Assembly (NCBI GenBank): GCA_000165345.1
Contig: CM000430.1
Coordinates: 448,001 to 512,000, forward strand
Direction: 5' to 3'
Length of the DNA stretch: 64,000 nt
Position 1 is the first letter of the stretch, and every line of letters starts with the position of its first letter. Made by a program: the position numbers and the translations under genes. The notes beneath the pieces were generated by a model that saw only the letters and a program-made list of their open reading frames with translations, did no database searches and was not told the origin of the DNA. Positions 2,729 to 48,021 of the stretch are shown in pieces.

Positions 2729-2890
2729 AGTTTGACACTAGTTTTTGTAGATAACATATTCAATAATTATACGCTTACGAATAAATAGATAGTAGCTTAC
2801 CGCCAATAAGGCAAATTTTTTTGGTACTTAAAAACTGTTAAAACAATATTCATTAAAAGCCTAAACACTTATAATGAAACTATTAAAGAT

Positions 2891-4276
2891 TCAACAGTAA
2901 AATCTAGAATCTAATGTATTACTATGAATATTAGTACAATGAAAATTATGGAATGAGCCAATACCTCCAGTTCCATTTATATTTTTATTAGCTTCTGCAT
3001 TACTCATTAAAATATTTCCCAGTCCTGATTCAACTTGGGAGTTACATAGTGTATTGCCAGATACCAGGTTTTGATGATTTTGCCTTCCTAATTGTCTCTG
3101 AAGGAGCTGCTCATTGCATTTATCAACAATAAAGGATAAAACTACGGATGGTAGGGTCTCTAATCCATTCATGGACCCATCGGAAGCAAATTTTGCACTA
3201 ACTGGCAGTGTTGTCAGGCCACTAAATGATGATGGAAAGTATGAAATTGTAATGTAAGAAAGATTTTGCGAAATTTCTGCGCATGGATGAATATTCCTGT
3301 TTTCTCTAAATGAAATAGACTGTTGTTGTTCACGCCATTGATCTGTTTTAAACGGATAGCCTACTGAAAATCCTGTAACTTGTGCCGAGCTGTTTGCATT
3401 AGAAATTCCGGTATTAAAAGCTCTGTAATGCTCGTTTGTATTGGATATATATTGATTATCGCACTTTAACTGTGTGCTGTTTTGGATATAACCACCATTA
3501 AAAGTATCAATTTTTGGATTGTCTGAACATAGAGAAATAGATGAATCATCTTTTAACTGGTTATTAAAATGGTTAACACTGTGCTCGGAATTAGTATTAT
3601 TTACATTTTTACCTGAAATAATTTTTGACAAGTTTCTCCTTCTTGACCATCTCTGTCTATCTGCAACTCTACAGGGCTCACATGATCTCATATGGGGTGT
3701 TGCATCACGCTTGTGACATCTCCAGCAAAGTTTTGGGTCGTCTCTACGTCTCCTTACCATGTTATTTTCTTTATTAATTGATTTAAATTTGTCTGAATTT
3801 ACCTTTTCTGTCAGATTATTCTCCAAATACGAAAACAAATTAAGGTTTTGGCTGGACTCCACATATTGATTTTCAGTTTTAAATTGGTTTTGATCTTTTA
3901 ATAAACAGTCTATTATTATTGATTTTGGAGTTTCTTCTTGAGAAAATGAGATAGACTCTGAAATCTTTTTATGATTTGTATTACCTCTGTGTATTTCCAG
4001 AAATTTTGGATTGCATTCAGAAGCGTTCACTTCTTCTGAAATATTGTTCGTACTGAAGCTACATTTGGAATTACTATGATTGTAATTTACATTTCCGTTT
4101 ACGTTTACGTTAACATTTACATTTAACTTATTACTGGTATTTTGAATACTTGTATTCAAGATTTTAGGAGAGTTGCTTAAATTGCTTGATGTCTCGTTCC
4201 AATTGCAAGCCTCTTCATCAAAAGATAAGATCATATCAGAGTTGATATATATTTCAGGAATTTGTATCCCTTCCAT
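2891..4276 (-). CDS. Hypothetical low-complexity protein with a basic Cys cluster (CWRCHKRDATPHMRSCEPCR)
   Basis: 461-aa ORF with ATG at 4276-4274. It has N/S-rich low complexity including an NVNVNVNGNVNYN tract, and a C-x2-C-x11-C-x2-C motif flanked by RRRR. No confident family assignment. Confidence 0.4.
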   Translation of the reverse strand: MEGIQIPEIYINSDMILSFDEEACNWNETSSNLSNSPKILNTSIQNTSNKLNVNVNVNVNGNVNYNHSNSKCSFSTNNISEEVNASECNPKFLEIHRGNTNHKKISESISFSQEETPKSIIIDCLLKDQNQFKTENQYVESSQNLNLFSYLENNLTEKVNSDKFKSINKENNMVRRRRDDPKLCWRCHKRDATPHMRSCEPCRVADRQRWSRRRNLSKIISGKNVNNTNSEHSVNHFNNQLKDDSSISLCSDNPKIDTFNGGYIQNSTQLKCDNQYISNTNEHYRAFNTGISNANSSAQVTGFSVGYPFKTDQWREQQQSISFRENRNIHPCAEISQNLSYITISYFPSSFSGLTTLPVSAKFASDGSMNGLETLPSVVLSFIVDKCNEQLLQRQLGRQNHQNLVSGNTLCNSQVESGLGNILMSNAEANKNINGTGGIGSFHNFHCTNIHSNTLDSRFYC

Positions 4277-42789: not shown

Positions 42790-44235
42790 CTATAACAATC
42801 CTAATTTATTATTTTTTAATTCACTTAGTATCGACTTGTTCCAGTAAGGCCAATCTTCCAGGACTCTTGCAATATTTAAGTTTGTATTCTTAGCTATCCA
42901 ATCGGGCAAAACTTCGCATTTAAAAATCAAATATTTTTCGGTGGGTACACTAGGCGGTAAAATATATAATAATGAGTGAAGGCATATTCCTATTGGAGGT
43001 TCTACAAAATATTCGACATGTGCAAGTCCATCAGAGGAATCTAATGACATAGAACCACCTCCACCAAAGTACTTTTTTTGTAAAGGGAATTCTAATAGCT
43101 CTTCAACTTCTAGATCTTTTATGTTATATATACATCTAGCTGACAAATTTGAGTCCGTGAACTTAAAACTTGAGGTATTTAATTTAGTTCCTGGTAAAAC
43201 TTTATCACTATAAAGAATATCTCGAACGATAGGAAATCCAATATACTTCAAATGAGCCCTTATTTGATGTGTTCTTCCAGTAATTGGTTTACAAAGCAAA
43301 ATAGAATACTTATCTGTTTCATTTATTTTTTGTTTTTTTGCCTCGTTTATGTCCAAACATGAAATTAGAGGGAAAAAATATGTCAGAGAGTACTTACTAT
43401 TTTCTGAACTGTCGATTCTTGTTATTAATGATTCGCCTTCTCTGTCTTTTAACGTTTTAAGTCCAATCTCGCATTTGATTACATGGCTTGTGATTCCGTG
43501 TGATTCATCCAGAGATAGCTCCCTAATGCTCACGCCTTCAATGCTACTCTGGGAAATATGAGAAATAAAGTTTGAAGTGCTCTCATTTATCATAGCTAAA
43601 TAATATTTATGTGCAAACTGGACTTTTGATGATAAATTTTTAGTTGTTGAAGAATCTTTACTAAGCAATACAAGGCCAGATGTAACTCTATCAAGTCTAT
43701 TTATCGGATGAATATAAGTACTGTTAGTGTTCAATTTTGAAAGATATTCTGATTGAATTAATTTTGTAAGTGAAAGTTTATTGAACCTTCCTTGAGGATG
43801 GCATGGAATGCCACAAGGCTTAAAAACTGCCAATAAGGTAGAAGAATCATACAATATTTTAACTTTATCTATCGCAACAGGAAGTTCTATAAATAGCGAT
43901 CTGTGTTTAATTTTGTCACCATTGCGAACAATATAGTCTAATGAATTAACAGGTGTATCATTAACACTTAGTCTTCTTTGGTCGATTAATCTCAGGTATT
44001 CTTCTATAGGTCTGGTTCTAAACTCGTTCAGAAACAAGTCTCTTAAGGTTCTGTCTCTCCATCTTAATTTACAAAACGATTCGTATTCAAACATATATGG
44101 AGGAACAACAACGACGTAGTCTTCAACTTCTTTATCATTATAATTTTTTTTTATAATTTTTAGTGTTTTTGCATCACTGGACGAGATTTCAACATTCAAT
44201 TCACTATATATTGTAAAGGTGTTATTTGAATTCAT
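42790..44235 (-). CDS. RluA-family pseudouridine synthase (RPUSD-like)
   Basis: It has the catalytic motifs NRLDRVTSGLVLLSKD (HRLDxxTSG) and GRTHQIRAHLKYIGFPIVRD. An N-terminal S4-like extension is present. Confidence 0.8.
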   Translation of the reverse strand: MNSNNTFTIYSELNVEISSSDAKTLKIIKKNYNDKEVEDYVVVVPPYMFEYESFCKLRWRDRTLRDLFLNEFRTRPIEEYLRLIDQRRLSVNDTPVNSLDYIVRNGDKIKHRSLFIELPVAIDKVKILYDSSTLLAVFKPCGIPCHPQGRFNKLSLTKLIQSEYLSKLNTNSTYIHPINRLDRVTSGLVLLSKDSSTTKNLSSKVQFAHKYYLAMINESTSNFISHISQSSIEGVSIRELSLDESHGITSHVIKCEIGLKTLKDREGESLITRIDSSENSKYSLTYFFPLISCLDINEAKKQKINETDKYSILLCKPITGRTHQIRAHLKYIGFPIVRDILYSDKVLPGTKLNTSSFKFTDSNLSARCIYNIKDLEVEELLEFPLQKKYFGGGGSMSLDSSDGLAHVEYFVEPPIGICLHSLLYILPPSVPTEKYLIFKCEVLPDWIAKNTNLNIARVLEDWPYWNKSILSELKNNKLGLL

Positions 44236-44299
44236 AATTTAGAATTAACACTACTGTTAAATTTTTATTAGGCGGCGTTAGTTATTCAATTATTTTGAA

Positions 44300-45303
44300 A
44301 TGGATTCTACAGCTTTAAAAGAAGAGATAATCGCACTCGAAAGTATATTTGGAGAAAGCCTTTACAACTTAGATAAGAGTGGACTCCCTTCCCCCGGTGT
44401 AAATTTTAATGATAAAGAAAGATCCCTTAAGTATTTTGTAAGTTTAAACTCGTAACTTTTTTCAATTTTTTAATATTTCTTCAGTCGGAATATCTTGATG
44501 GGATCTTGGAAATTAAAATTAGCATTCCATTTGGATACCCCTTAGAAGCGTCTTCTTTTTGTATATCTTCATGGTATTTTGACGTTCATTATTTAACAAA
44601 TTCAGAAGAATTACCGCAATCAAAAAATATCTCTCTAACTTCCAATACATTCAAGCAGTTAAAGGAACTAATTGAAACAAGAGTAGAAAGCAAAACCCCA
44701 ATTTTATTTGAGATAATTGACATTTTGATTTCCTGTAATATTGATCACGAGAAATATAAAACAAAATCAAGTATTAAAGAACAAAGAATTGAAACTAACC
44801 ACTTTGATCAATTTGATGGAGATAAAATTTTTGGTGTAACGCATGGCGAACCTATAATTGATCGAAAAAGTGTTTTCCAAGCTCATGCGTGTAAGGTAGA
44901 AACAGTTGAACAAGTTAAAAAAGTTATCAAATGGTTGCTTTCGAACCCAAAGATTGCTAAAGCAACGCACAATATTTGGTCATATAGAATATTCAAGGAG
45001 AAAAATTTCGCAGAAGTAACTGAAGGATCTTTCCCCATTGGGTACGATATCATATCACAAGATCACGACTCGGATGGCGAGAATGCAGCAGGAGGCAGAC
45101 TTCAACATCTTCTTGAAATTACTAATGCAAAGAATGTATTCGTTATGGTGTCTAGATGGTACGGGGGTATTCAACTAGGGCCAGACAGGTTTAAACATAT
45201 TAATAATGCTGCAAGGCTGATCTTAGAAAAATCGGGCTTAATAACTAGATCGGGGACTTTTTATAAACCGCAATCGAATAAAAACAAAAAGAATCAAATT
45301 TAA
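44300..45303 (+). CDS. IMPACT: IMPACT/YIH1 homolog (RWD domain plus UPF0029/YigZ domain), 2 exons
   Basis: Exon 1 is 44300-44398 (MDSTALKEEIIALESIFGESLYNLDKSGLPSPG). The intron is 44399-44484 (86 nt, GTAATT..TTCAG). Exon 2 is 44485-45303 (SEYLDGILEIKISIPFGYP... then ...RKSVFQAHACKV...IAKATHNIWSYRI...DGENAAGGRLQHLLEI...VFVMVSRWYGGIQLGPDRFKHINNAARLIL). The RWD block matches EEIEALAAIYGE...LPNEYP and the C-terminus matches the IMPACT family. An alternative donor at 44437 (GTAAGT) breaks the frame. The track shows only 44506-45303 with a TTG 'start'. Confidence 0.7.
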
Positions 45304-45321
45304 TCGTTCTAAAAATGTTTT

Positions 45322-45803
45322 TCAATCTTTGGAAACTAAACTGCTGAATATCATATCTGGTACTCCTTTGGAAACAATATATCGATGGTTACATATTGGG
45401 CAGATCAACTCCGCCTCCATAATTTGAAACTATAAAAGTTAAATTGAAAAAAAAAAAATGATTATTAACTTACTCTTAAAATCGCGTCATGTACTGCGCA
45501 TAAAAAAACTTCATCATCAAAATCTTGCTCGGAATAACTCAACGGCAAGCTTAATCCAAATTGAGAAGCACTTTTTACTAGAACACCCCAATCTACCTTT
45601 TTTATTATTTGCTTAATTTGTTCTATATTAAATTCAACATCCAGCATTTTTGTCGATTCCTCAACGCTTCCATTCAAAGAAATTTCCAACGGAAAACCAT
45701 TCCTACATTCAGATCTATTACTTAAGTTATTAAAGATGGATATTTTATATTCATGTAATTATTTGACTTACCAAATTAAAATGTTATGAGTCAACAAACG
45801 CAT
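45322..45803 (-). CDS. TRM112: TRM112 (methyltransferase activator subunit), 3 exons
   Basis: Exons on the minus strand are 45803-45772, 45702-45474 and 45429-45322. Introns are 45771-45703 (69 nt, GTAAGT..TGTAG) and 45473-45430 (44 nt, GTAAGT..TATAG). The spliced protein is MRLLTHNILIWNGFPLEISL...DVEFNIEQIKQIIKKVDWGVLVKSA...DEVFLCAVHDAILRFQIMEAELICPICNHRYIVSKGVPDMIFS, which parallels human TRMT112 MKLLTHNLL..GFPL...EFNP.F...IPKVEW...NEEFLR..HHLLLEV.V.EG.L.CPESGR.FPI..GIPNML. The track shows only the middle exon, at 45465-45689 with a TTG 'start'. Confidence 0.7.
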
Positions 45804-46011
45804 TTTACTTTTGATAATCCTGATTTGACTAATCACATCATAGACATATCGACAAAATTTACGTTTTATCACCGCTTCATGGCGGCTTTCTCTTGCATGA
45901 CTTCTCAACTATTCTCTAAATTAGTAGTCATATACCTAAGGAATAATTTTTATAATAATTTATTAAAGAAATATTTTATGACCTGATTGTTGGAATCAAA
46001 TTTTTGCTCTC

Positions 46012-46515
46012 ATGATGGGAAGATTAACTATCGAAATATTTTTATCTATCATAATATTGTTCATTTCTTGCTCCACACAGTTAGAACTTGATATCATGAA
46101 GGATATTGGAACTAATAATAAAGATTTTTTCCAAAAAGAAATATCTCCAGTTGCCATTTCAAGAATTATTGCAATTAAAGATCAATTAAGAATATTTAGT
46201 GGGTCAAATGCTGATACTTCTATAAGAGAGGGTAATTTTATTTCGACTATAATGGCAAACAATTTGAAAGAGTACATAGGATTAGACCACAAGGTAATGT
46301 CAGGGAGTAATAGAGGCGCATTCGTAATATATGATACAAACGACTATCCTTTTGCGTGTAACTGCAACTCGGCGCAATATCAAAACTGGAAAAACGCCAG
46401 TGAAAACCAAAATATAAAAGTAGAATGTACTAACACAATAAATACGGGAATTTTCAATAGCAACGATATTGATTATTGTGATCCTACAAATATTGCAGCA
46501 TCACAAAGTGTCTGA
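46012..46515 (+). CDS. Hypothetical secreted Cys-containing protein (signal peptide)
   Basis: 167 aa. The N-terminus has a hydrophobic signal-like segment (MMGRLTIEIFLSIIILFISCS). The C-terminal half has about 6 Cys residues. Confidence 0.4.
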   Translation: MMGRLTIEIFLSIIILFISCSTQLELDIMKDIGTNNKDFFQKEISPVAISRIIAIKDQLRIFSGSNADTSIREGNFISTIMANNLKEYIGLDHKVMSGSNRGAFVIYDTNDYPFACNCNSAQYQNWKNASENQNIKVECTNTINTGIFNSNDIDYCDPTNIAASQSV

Positions 46516-46608
46516 ATTGAAGAATAATGAAGCGAAAAAAAATTCTCTATTTTGACTATTTGCAATCATAAATTTAATAATTTAAACTTAGTAGTTATTA
46601 CATTAATA

Positions 46609-47236
46609 TTACATTATATCGTTATCATTAGTATTGTCTTCCAGTTCATCATAATCTTCATTAGCTCCAGAATTCATATATTCATAATCGATGTCAGACT
46701 CTTGATCATCTTCTAAAATTTCAATGTCTTCATTATAGGTATCTTTATTCTCTTGTACTGTTGTATCTTCGTCATCACCTAAATTCTTATTCTTCAAATT
46801 ACCAAAATTTGCCATACATATGGCTCTCTTCGAAATCCCTAGCCTTCTTTTATTCATATTCAATGAATTGGAAAGGAGATCATGCGCAAAAAATGGGTTT
46901 TCTTTTTGTAAATTCTCAGGTAAATTCAAAAGGGAAAATAAATATTCCTTTAAAATATTCTGATTTTCGTTTGAATGTTCATCCAAATTCTCATTTACTA
47001 TACTGTTTGTGCTCCCAATATTAAACTGCCAAAACTGCATTATGTGTAAATATTCATCTACGCAAAATTTGACCTCGCGTGCCAAATTAATTTCTTTGTC
47101 AACTTCAGATTGATCAGGAAAATATGGATGAATTGGAAACACTCCTTAAAACAAATGCGTAAATTTCTAAAAGCATAGCAAGATTGCTTAACAACTTACC
47201 TTGGGTGTTATTTTGATTAGTAGTTTGTCCACTCAT
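46609..47236 (-). CDS. Hypothetical protein with an acidic D/E-rich C-terminal tail, 2 exons
   Basis: Exon 1 is 47236-47200 (MSGQTTNQNNTQ plus 1 nt). The intron is 47199-47145 (55 nt, GTAAGT..TTTAAG). Exon 2 is 47144-46609, which the track shows as 46609-47142 with a GTG 'start'. The phase is consistent (G+GA=Gly). The C-terminus is DDEDTTVQEN...EDIEILEDDQESDIDYEY...EDYDELEDNTNDNDIM. Confidence 0.4.
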
Positions 47237-47316
47237 TAAAAGTAAACCAGGTAACGAGCATCTCTGTTAATTTGCAATTGGCGCCTGTCAATTTATTTAT
47301 CCCGCTATTTTTAATT

Positions 47317-48021
47317 TTAAGATAAAAAAATTGCCACTTCTATTGCAAATTTGATCTTTTTCGCAACTCTTAATATATTCAACTTAATATTTTGTAGCAC
47401 TACATCCCTTTCAATGTTCATTATTATTTGCAACCTTTCTTTTTCATGCATGAAGTGATTCTTTTCTTCCTTTGATAATATTGAATCATCCAATTTAATT
47501 ATTTCGGAGTAGCACATAACTAATGTATGTTTTGGAATTTTTAACCTATGTAACATAACTTCAGAGAAATCTTGTAGGTGAGATATGACTAAATATTTTG
47601 TTTTCGAAATAAGTATTTTTCTGTAAATTAAGAATAAGAATTGATAGCTGATATCAATTGAATTTGACGGAAACGATTCGGAAAGCAGTTTTAACAATCT
47701 TTCATTGAATTTTTGAGAAGAACTCAACTCATTAGCGTCGTAAACAATTTTATTAAAGCTACTAATAAACTTGCAAACAAGTCTCTGTGCTGAAATATTG
47801 TTTAAAGAATTAATATTGTTAATTGACTCTCTATTATGAATTTCTGTTGCCTCATCTATAACATTTTGTAAAATTTCTGCATCATATAATACTGAGATTA
47901 TACCAAAATAAACCAAAACTGTTGTGATTAAAATGATAAATAAAATTTCTTGGTAACCAATAATAGAACCATTAAATATAAAAGTTTCGTTTTTGAGGAA
48001 TATATTAATTTTTTTAAACAT
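47317..48021 (-). CDS. Hypothetical protein with an N-terminal signal-anchor/TM segment
   Basis: 234 aa with ATG at 48021-48019. A hydrophobic stretch (ILFIILITTVLVYFGIISVL) lies near the N-terminus. It is divergent from MetAP2 across a roughly 420-bp spacer. Confidence 0.4.
   Translation of the reverse strand: MFKKINIFLKNETFIFNGSIIGYQEILFIILITTVLVYFGIISVLYDAEILQNVIDEATEIHNRESINNINSLNNISAQRLVCKFISSFNKIVYDANELSSSQKFNERLLKLLSESFPSNSIDISYQFLFLIYRKILISKTKYLVISHLQDFSEVMLHRLKIPKHTLVMCYSEIIKLDDSILSKEEKNHFMHEKERLQIIMNIERDVVLQNIKLNILRVAKKIKFAIEVAIFLS

What the first reader, a model, noticed from the sequence alone, without database searches (positions are those of the whole stretch)
45322..45803. Hidden three-exon TRM112 gene on the minus strand, tail-to-tail with IMPACT at about 18 bp
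The spliced product (MRLLTHNILIW-NGFPL...DVEFN...KVDWGV...DEVFLCAVHDAILR-FQIMEAELICPICNHRYIVSKGVPDMIFS) is a clear match to Trm112 family proteins (MKLLTHNLL, GFPL, EFNP, KVEW, EEFL..HHLLLE, CPxxG..FPI..GIPNML). The track shows one internal exon as a 74-aa ORF with a TTG 'start', plus an overlapping plus-strand ORF (45786-45986) that is probably spurious. The stop codons of TRM112 (45322) and IMPACT (45303) are only about 18 bp apart, so the 3' UTRs must overlap.
Basis: partly seen in the sequence, partly recalled or inferred. Interest (0 to 1): 0.6.

Follow-up and report, generated by a model that had tools for sequence, protein, structure and literature searches.

The report
Annotated Cryptosporidium TRM112 gene, splice corrected

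Summary
The window is Cryptosporidium parvum chromosome 2; 6,482 of 6,482 bases around the locus match CP044421.1. Positions 45322-45803 on the minus strand encode a three-exon Trm112 gene whose stop codon lies 18 nt from the stop codon of IMPACT. Both observations are confirmed.

The gene is not hidden. It is cgd2_2440, annotated as "Trm112p-like protein" (QOY42989.1, 128 aa) with exactly this span.

Intron 1 is 51 nt (45771-45721), not 69 nt.

Support for the 128-aa model:
- All four cysteines are invariant.
- dN/dS is 0.10-0.24.

The close convergent layout is conserved across the genus (7-56 nt). It is also typical of this compact genome, where other convergent ORF pairs in the window lie 25-93 nt apart. 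The plus-strand ORF 45786-45986 is spurious.

Verdict: already known, low interest.

The parts
45772..45803 (-). TRM112 exon 1 (32 nt; ATG at 45803-45801; encodes MRLLTHNILI plus the first two bases of codon 11)
   Evidence: A 32-nt exon 1 is conserved in 7 Cryptosporidium genomes.
45721..45771 (-). Intron 1, 51 nt, GTAAGT...TTAAG, phase 2. This is the preferred model and the annotated one.
   Evidence: The model identical to QOY42989.1 (P0007) needs this intron. The same intron position occurs in 7 genomes, with intron lengths of 51-117 nt. Position 51 is the first AG after the 5' splice site region.
45703..45720 (-). They are coding and contribute C11-N-R-S-E-C16-R17.
Evidence: The segment is translated as CN[RK]x[EC]C[RK] in all 7 genomes. 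Splicing at that position would create TGA in those two species and in the Logan species.
45474..45720 (-). TRM112 exon 2 (247 nt). It contains the 74-aa TTG ORF shown in the ORF track.
45430..45473 (-). Intron 2, 44 nt, GTAAGT...TATAG, phase 0
   Evidence: The position is conserved in 7 genomes, with lengths of 42-60 nt.
45322..45429 (-). TRM112 exon 3 (108 nt including the TGA stop at 45324-45322). It encodes FQIMEAELICPICNHRYIVSKGVPDMIFSSLVSKD, with the CxxC zinc ligands and the GxPxM strand.
45304..45321 (.). 18-nt spacer between the two stop codons of the convergent genes
   Evidence: Orthologous spacers are 18, 23, 21, 21, 7 and 56 nt in six other genomes.
44300..45303 (+). IMPACT/Yih1-like gene (RWD plus Impact_N/UPF0029 domains). 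Exon 1 is 44300-44437, the 47-nt intron is 44438-44484, and exon 2 is 44485-45303. The product is 318 aa.
   Evidence: Pfam PF01205 at 95.3 bits and PF05773 at 25.5 bits. The 47-nt intron gives the annotated length of 318 aa.
45786..45986 (+). Spurious 66-aa ORF, antisense to the TRM112 5' end and promoter
   Evidence: No Pfam hit. It is truncated to 27 aa in C. hominis and C. meleagridis and is absent further out.
45870..45886 (-). Conserved GC-rich element GCCGCCATGAAGCGGTG, preceded by CATGCAAG, in the 208-nt divergent promoter region between TRM112 and the 167-aa gene at 46012-46515 (+)
   Evidence: Alignment of upstream regions. The block is conserved in six intestinal-clade genomes within otherwise AT-rich, divergent sequence. 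A promoter function is inferred, not tested.

Best explanation
Window 45322-45803 (minus strand) is the Cryptosporidium parvum TRM112 gene, cgd2_2440.

Gene structure: three exons of 32, 247 and 108 nt, with two short GT-AG introns of 51 and 44 nt. The product is 128 aa.

Protein: it has the two-domain architecture of eukaryotic Trm112. The N- and C-terminal segments form a zinc-knuckle with four cysteine ligands (C11-x4-C16 and C103-x2-C106). A central helical domain is inserted between them.

Mechanism, inferred by homology with yeast and human Trm112/TRMT112: the protein binds class I SAM-dependent methyltransferases through a beta-zipper made by its C-terminal strand (around G115-V-P-D-M-I). 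Likely partners are the orthologues of Bud23, Trm9, Trm11 and Mtq2/HemK2, and perhaps METTL5. Binding covers a hydrophobic patch on the enzymes and so stabilises and activates them. These enzymes methylate 18S rRNA, tRNAs and release factor eRF1.

Genomic context: the gene converges on the two-exon IMPACT gene with 18 nt between the stop codons, so the two mRNAs almost certainly overlap at their 3' ends. This is a usual consequence of the compact Cryptosporidium genome.

Shown here: gene structure, family membership, conservation, purifying selection and the layout. Inferred: zinc binding, the partner set, activation, and the extent of transcript overlap.
For: Identity of the locus:
- The window is 100% identical over 6,482 nt to C. 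parvum IOWA-ATCC chr2 CP044421.1 and over 3,521 nt to CpBGF CP141119.1.
- Both assemblies annotate a Trm112p gene at this spot next to Impact_N.
- The 51-nt/44-nt intron model translates exactly to QOY42989.1.

Family membership:
- Pfam PF03966 scores 32.4 bits (cutoff 22) and covers profile positions 2-40 of 40.
- A profile of 8 Cryptosporidium-type sequences hits human TRMT112 at 1.9e-18, yeast Trm112 at 7e-15 and Y. lipolytica Trm112 at 2.2e-12, all end to end.
- There are 345 homologues in the 1.84-billion-protein library, mostly 115-135 aa and aligned over residues 1-121.
- The AlphaFold2 model (pLDDT 67) has strand-helices-strand order, and its top 12 Foldseek PDB hits are all TRMT112 chains.

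Zinc ligands:
- C11, C16, C103 and C106 are invariant in the 8-sequence alignment.
- They fit the published CX3-4C / CX2C ligand motifs (PMC5372719).
- Among 83 full-length homologues the two cysteine pairs co-occur: 52 have both, 27 have neither, and only 1 has the C-terminal pair alone.

Conservation:
- Exon lengths and intron positions are conserved in 7 Cryptosporidium genomes.
- dN/dS against C. parvum is 0.10-0.24.
- Introns diverge faster than exons.

Published transcript support:
- Introns of the IOWA-ATCC annotation are described as 100% supported by RNA-seq (PMC8744675).
- UTR overlaps are described as frequent in C. parvum (PMC12179316).
Against: - I examined no transcript data for this locus. 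A scan for the spliced junction in metagenome contigs found nothing, and the Logan contigs that carry the gene are genomic.
- The structure model is only moderately confident (pLDDT 67, TM about 0.5), and its N-terminal 7 residues are poorly modelled.
- Partner methyltransferases in C. parvum were not searched for.
- Both acceptors are in frame in C. parvum, C. hominis, C. meleagridis and chipmunk genotype I, so minor use of the downstream acceptor cannot be excluded.
- Public gene models disagree at the 5' end, with lengths of 93, 130, 141 and 157 aa.
Confidence: 0.93

Rival explanations
1. Intron 1 would be 69 nt (45771-45703), giving a 122-aa Trm112 that lacks the two N-terminal zinc-ligand cysteines while keeping the C-terminal CxxC.
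For: - GT-AG boundaries, in frame and with no stop codon.
- It still passes the Pfam gathering score at 23.3 bits and matches human TRMT112 at 2.3e-11.
- The acceptor AG is present in four closely related species.
Against: - The Pfam score is 9 bits lower and only profile positions 17-40 align.
- The AG is absent in C. ubiquitum and C. muris. Splicing at that position would give TGA in those two and in the Logan species.
- The skipped 18 nt are kept as CN[RK]x[EC]C[RK] in all 7 genomes.
- Only 1 of 83 full-length homologues has the C-terminal CxxC without the N-terminal pair.
- Every full-length public model uses the 51-nt intron.
Confidence: 0.04
2. The locus is a decaying or non-functional remnant, or a chance match, and not an expressed functional gene.
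For: - Early annotations were fragmentary or labelled 'hypothetical protein, partial'.
- I examined no transcripts directly.
Against: - dN/dS is 0.10-0.24 across the genus.
- The reading frame is intact and the intron positions are conserved in 7 genomes, including the distant C. muris.
- There are 43 invariant residues, including the four cysteines.
- E-values against solved Trm112 structures reach 1e-18.
Confidence: 0.01
3. The plus-strand ORF 45786-45986 (66 aa) is a real small gene overlapping the TRM112 start.
For: It starts with ATG and is open for 66 codons in C. parvum.
Against: - No Pfam match.
- It is interrupted after 27 codons in C. hominis and C. meleagridis, which are 96-98% identical in the neighbouring coding DNA, and it is unrecognisable in more distant species.
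- It lies in the divergent promoter and 5' region.
Confidence: 0.02

Closest known systems
Saccharomyces cerevisiae Trm112 (Ynr046w; PDB 2J6A, 4QTT/4QTU)
   Same: - Length class is similar (128 vs 135 aa).
- The N-terminal MxxLTxN strand is shared.
- The four zinc ligands have the same spacing and position: C11-x4-C16 plus a C-terminal CxxC (motifs from PMC5372719).
- Both have a central helical insert and a C-terminal G-[IV]-P-x-[ML] strand.
- The profile match is end to end at E = 7e-15.
   Different: - Sequence similarity to yeast Trm112 is weaker than to human TRMT112 (7e-15 against 1.9e-18).
- The link between the N-terminal knuckle and the helical domain is shorter.
- The gene has two introns.
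- No biochemical data exist for the Cryptosporidium protein.
Human TRMT112 (PDB 6G4W, 6H2V, 6K0X, 6H1D and others)
   Same: - It is the best sequence and fold match: E = 1.9e-18 over residues 1-123 against 1-120, and the top 12 Foldseek hits.
- The conserved blocks LTHN, GFPL, EFN, V(D/E)W, FL..(V/M)H and G(I/V)P(N/D)M are shared.
   Different: The metazoan protein has lost all four zinc-ligand cysteines (PMC5372719; alignment). The Cryptosporidium protein keeps them, so it is of the fungal/ancestral zinc-binding type.
Published Cryptosporidium gene models for the same locus (cgd2_2440 and its orthologues)
   Same: QOY42989.1 / KAL5370037.1 (C. parvum), POM85320.1 (C. meleagridis) and XP_067199352.1 (chipmunk genotype I) are 128-aa models with the same exon structure as derived here.
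   Different: Other public models are truncated or extended:
- 93 aa starting at Met36: F0X652, C. hominis PPS95135.1 and C. tyzzeri TRY52856.1.
- 88 aa: C. ubiquitum cubi_00621.
- 130 aa reading through intron 1: XP_001388221.1.
- 141 and 157 aa 'partial' models that start upstream of the ATG: WRK31033.1 and CUV04600.1.

Membership tests
Eukaryotic Trm112/TRMT112 (Pfam PF03966 Trm112p) | Match to the Trm112p profile above Pfam's gathering score | tested here: met
The 128-aa model scores 32.4 bits against a cutoff of 22 and covers profile positions 2-40 of 40.
Eukaryotic Trm112/TRMT112 (Pfam PF03966 Trm112p) | End-to-end sequence similarity to experimentally characterised Trm112 proteins | tested here: met
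   Human TRMT112 at 1.9e-18 (residues 1-123 against 1-120), yeast Trm112 at 7e-15 and Y. lipolytica at 2.2e-12. The single-sequence search gave 2.3e-11.
Eukaryotic Trm112/TRMT112 (Pfam PF03966 Trm112p) | Zinc-knuckle ligand motifs: CX3-4C near the N-terminus and CX2C near the C-terminus (the non-metazoan type; PMC5372719) | tested here: met
C11-x4-C16 and C103-x2-C106 are invariant in 8 sequences. The C11-x4-C16 geometry is found in 47 of the 55 homologues that have an N-terminal pair. The feature is met only with the 51-nt intron.
Eukaryotic Trm112/TRMT112 (Pfam PF03966 Trm112p) | [quoted passage not shown] | tested here: met
   The AlphaFold2 model has a strand at 23-27, helices at 43-52, 55-64, 75-79 and 81-93, and strands at 97-102 and 109-114. 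Its top 12 Foldseek PDB hits are all TRMT112 chains, with probability 1.00 and TM about 0.5. Model confidence is moderate (pLDDT 67).
Eukaryotic Trm112/TRMT112 (Pfam PF03966 Trm112p) | Actual zinc binding | not testable with these tools
   This needs metal analysis of purified protein. It is inferred only from the four conserved cysteines.
Eukaryotic Trm112/TRMT112 (Pfam PF03966 Trm112p) | Binding and activation of class I methyltransferases (Bud23, Trm9, Trm11, Mtq2) through a beta-zipper | not testable with these tools
   The C-terminal strand motif G115-V-P-D-M-I is present. The partners were not searched for. C. parvum is reported to have an ALKBH8 with an RRM/AlkB/ZnF architecture, and such domains act on the Trm9-Trm112 product mcm5U in other organisms (PMC4051686). 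This is indirect evidence only.
Eukaryotic Trm112/TRMT112 (Pfam PF03966 Trm112p) | Expressed and spliced as modelled | not tested
   No RNA data were available here. The junction search in metagenome contigs was empty. The only published support is the general statement that introns of the IOWA-ATCC annotation, which holds this model, are 100% supported by RNA-seq (PMC8744675).
IMPACT/Yih1 family (the neighbouring gene) | N-terminal RWD domain plus C-terminal Impact_N/UPF0029 domain | tested here: met
   PF01205 at 95.3 bits (cutoff 27) and PF05773 at 25.5 bits (cutoff 22.8). These scores were obtained on an approximate 316-aa concatenation of the two ORFs, not the final model. The two-exon, 318-aa model matches the annotated length.

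The most novel reading that the evidence does not exclude
In the C. parvum / hominis / meleagridis / chipmunk clade, a second in-frame acceptor 18 nt downstream (TGTAG|G) may be used some of the time. That would give a minor Trm112 isoform lacking both N-terminal zinc ligands. Separately, the TRM112-IMPACT pair is kept convergent at 56 nt or less across the genus. Both genes concern translation, and they may be coupled through 3' antisense overlap. Neither idea has positive evidence here. They are simply not excluded without transcript data.
Probability: 0.06. Interest if true: 0.3.

Novelty: already known. Interest (0 to 1): 0.08.

Why it matters
It matters little beyond annotation hygiene.

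- Trm112 is a universal eukaryotic cofactor, and its presence in Cryptosporidium is expected and already recorded.
- The corrected splice site restores the N-terminal zinc-ligand pair. This shows how an in-frame alternative AG can mislead reading by eye.
- One uniform three-exon model fits all seven Cryptosporidium genomes examined. Several public models (93, 88, 130, 141 and 157 aa) are truncated or mis-started and could be fixed.
- The 18-nt stop-to-stop spacing is a clean example of the known compaction of this genome, not a new phenomenon.

Tried and rejected
- Literature search for 'cgd2_2440' gave no papers. The search for 'Cryptosporidium' plus 'Trm112' gave only incidental mentions.
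- No supplementary files are held for the T2T annotation paper.
- I looked for transcript-derived contigs. Logan contigs L009 and L010, which carry a 60-aa fragment, are genomic because the introns are present.
- A scan of metagenome contigs for either spliced exon1-exon2 junction found nothing.
- The exact 122-aa reader model is not in the 15-billion-protein collection.
- An Rfam scan of 43500-47500 at E<=1 found nothing, so there is no intronic snoRNA or similar.
- A MAFFT L-INS-i run timed out. I replaced it with motif counting.
- Canonical A[AT]TAAA poly(A) hexamers are not consistently present downstream of either stop codon across species, so no 3' end could be predicted from sequence.
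- I considered the pseudogene reading and the reading in which the plus-strand ORF is real, and rejected both (see rivals).
- I did not search for partner methyltransferases in C. parvum. The cost of the large protein search was not justified for this finding.

Full report
**What is in the sequence**

On the minus strand there is an ATG at 45803-45801 followed by MRLLTHNILI. A GTAAGT donor starts at 45771 and a second GTAAGT donor starts at 45473. The reading frame ends at TGA 45324-45322.

The mechanical ORF list shows only fragments of this gene: a 74-aa TTG ORF at 45465-45689 (-) and a 32-aa ORF at 45322-45420 (-). It also shows a 66-aa plus-strand ORF at 45786-45986. On the plus strand an ORF ends at 45303, so 18 nt (45304-45321) separate the two stop codons.

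**Where the window comes from, and whether the gene is hidden**

Cluster members include:
- QOY42989.1 / KAL5370037.1 (C. parvum, 128 aa);
- XP_001388221.1 (C. parvum Iowa II, "hypothetical protein, partial");
- UniRef F0X652, "Cgd2_2440 protein".

The 6,482 nt around the gene are 100% identical to C. parvum IOWA-ATCC chr2 CP044421.1, positions 489511-495992. There a 482-nt, 128-aa Trm112p gene is annotated 18 nt from a 318-aa Impact_N gene. The CpBGF telomere-to-telomere assembly (CP141119.1) is also identical over 3,521 nt. The gene is thus cgd2_2440 and is already annotated. It is hidden only from a bacterial-style ORF track.

**The splice model needs one correction**

I enumerated all GT-AG introns that keep the frame open. 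The 51-nt intron gives a product identical to QOY42989.1.

Six lines of evidence favour the 51-nt intron.

1. I rebuilt the gene in seven Cryptosporidium genomes: parvum, hominis, meleagridis, chipmunk genotype I, ubiquitum, an unnamed species in Logan SRR18693150, and muris. Exon 1 is always 32 nt and exon 2 always 247 nt. Intron lengths vary (51-117 nt and 42-60 nt).
2. The 18-nt segment is translated as CN[RK]x[EC]C[RK] in all seven genomes. Splicing at that position would create TGA in those two species and in the Logan species.
3. The Pfam Trm112p score rises from 23.3 bits (profile positions 17-40) to 32.4 bits (positions 2-40).
4. C11, C16, C103 and C106 are invariant in the alignment. 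They fit the published zinc-ligand motifs CX3-4C and CX2C of non-metazoan Trm112 (PMC5372719).
5. Among 83 full-length homologues from the exhaustive search, the two cysteine pairs co-occur. 52 have both pairs, 27 have neither, 3 have the N-terminal pair only, and 1 has the C-terminal pair only.
6. By general knowledge, the first AG downstream of the branch site is normally used.

Baptista et al. state that introns of the IOWA-ATCC annotation, which holds this model, are 100% supported by RNA-seq (PMC8744675). That is indirect transcript support. I could not examine reads myself.

**Is it a functional Trm112?**

- A profile of the Cryptosporidium-type sequences matches human TRMT112 (1.9e-18), yeast Trm112 (7e-15) and Y. 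lipolytica Trm112 (2.2e-12), each end to end.
- 345 homologues were found among 1.84 billion representative proteins. Most are 115-135 aa and align over residues 1-121.
- An AlphaFold2 model has moderate confidence (pLDDT 67). It shows the expected order of an N-terminal strand, four helices and two C-terminal strands.
- The model's 12 best PDB matches are all TRMT112 chains.
- Pairwise dN/dS against C. parvum is 0.10-0.24, and the introns diverge faster than the exons.

This is a conserved gene under purifying selection.

**How it most likely works**

The mechanism is inferred from the family. The small zinc-knuckle protein pairs its C-terminal strand (around GVPDMI, residues 115-120) with strand beta-3 of class I methyltransferases. 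This buries a hydrophobic surface and stabilises and activates the enzymes: Bud23 (18S rRNA m7G), Trm9 (mcm5U34), Trm11 (m2G10) and Mtq2/HemK2 (eRF1 glutamine methylation) (PMC5372719). I did not search for the C. parvum partners. The one indirect hint is that C. parvum is reported to have an ALKBH8 with an RRM/AlkB/ZnF architecture, and such domains act on the Trm9-Trm112 product in other organisms (PMC4051686).

**The tail-to-tail arrangement**

The IMPACT neighbour is a two-exon gene: 44300-44437 and 44485-45303, with a 47-nt intron and a 318-aa product. It has RWD and Impact_N domains.

The convergent pairing with TRM112 is conserved in all seven genomes. Stop-to-stop spacers are 18, 18, 23, 21, 21, 7 and 56 nt.

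Short spacers are normal for this genome. Other convergent long-ORF pairs in the same window lie 25, 34, 64, 67, 68, 81 and 93 nt apart. The published mean intergenic distance is about 500 bp, and "frequent UTR overlaps" are reported (PMC7840661, PMC12179316).

Overlap of the two 3' ends is therefore very likely, but it is ordinary here. No consistent poly(A) hexamer allowed me to predict the ends from sequence.

**The plus-strand ORF 45786-45986**

It has no family match. It is cut to 27 codons in C. hominis and C. meleagridis and disappears in more distant species.

**Verdict**

The feature is already known and of low interest.

The only added value is at the level of curation. A uniform three-exon model fits all seven genomes, whereas several public models are truncated or mis-started.

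Noticed in passing
window 45870-45886 (-), with CATGCAAG at about 45891-45898 (-): A GC-rich, partly palindromic block (GCCGCCATGAAGCGGTG) preceded by CATGCAAG is conserved in six intestinal-clade Cryptosporidium genomes. It sits inside the otherwise AT-rich, fast-diverging 208-nt divergent promoter region between TRM112 and the 167-aa gene at 46012-46515 (+). C. muris has a GGCGGGAA-type motif at the corresponding place. It may be a shared promoter element of E2F-like or AP2-like type; that resemblance is from memory and was not tested.
   Followed up: partly
L004 2838-3324 (C. ubiquitum); L007 3088-3568 (C. hominis UdeA01); L011 1501-2021 (CpBGF); proteins P0002, P0004, P0009, P0011, P0012, P0013: Public gene models for this orthologue are inconsistent.
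- 93-aa models start at Met36 (C. hominis 30976, C. tyzzeri, UniRef F0X652).
- An 88-aa C. ubiquitum model misses exon 1 and mis-splices intron 2.
- A 130-aa Iowa II model reads through intron 1.
- The 141-aa and 157-aa 'partial' models start upstream of the ATG.
One three-exon model (128 aa, or 132 and 135 aa in the two outliers) fits all seven genomes.
   Followed up: yes
window 7626/7661, 21345/21371, 28398/28467, 36826/36894, 42013/42095, 46515/46609, 53904/53969: Seven other convergent long-ORF pairs in the window have stop-to-stop gaps of only 25-93 nt. Divergent pairs are 208-1487 nt apart. Tight tail-to-tail packing is therefore a general property of this chromosome region.
   Followed up: partly
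L007 3587-4459 (C. hominis UdeA01 IMPACT model): The C. hominis UdeA01 IMPACT model is 290 aa, against 316-319 aa in the other species. It probably lacks the short first exon and its 47-nt intron, which are present in C. parvum at window 44300-44484.
   Followed up: no
L008 (Logan SRR18693150 contig, 29.4 kb), TRM112 at 2810-3308: This is an unnamed Cryptosporidium-like genome, about 84% identical to C. parvum in this CDS and with the same gene order. Here the TRM112 and IMPACT stop codons are only 7 nt apart.
   Followed up: partly
L005 32-409 (ENA ERZ12420515, 595-nt contig), protein P0006: This is an intron-less Trm112 homologue about 42% identical to the C. parvum protein, from an unidentified organism. 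It begins MRLLTHNLLQCNRKQC, so the CNRxxC segment is contiguous with exon 1 sequence there.
   Followed up: no
window 45452-45454 (-), codon 118 of TRM112: C. parvum has Asp in the highly conserved G-[IV]-P-N-M strand motif (GVPDM). C. hominis, C. meleagridis, chipmunk genotype I, C. ubiquitum and C. muris all have Asn. Asp also occurs in a few distant homologues (for example P0026, P0037, P0062), so it is probably tolerated.
   Followed up: no
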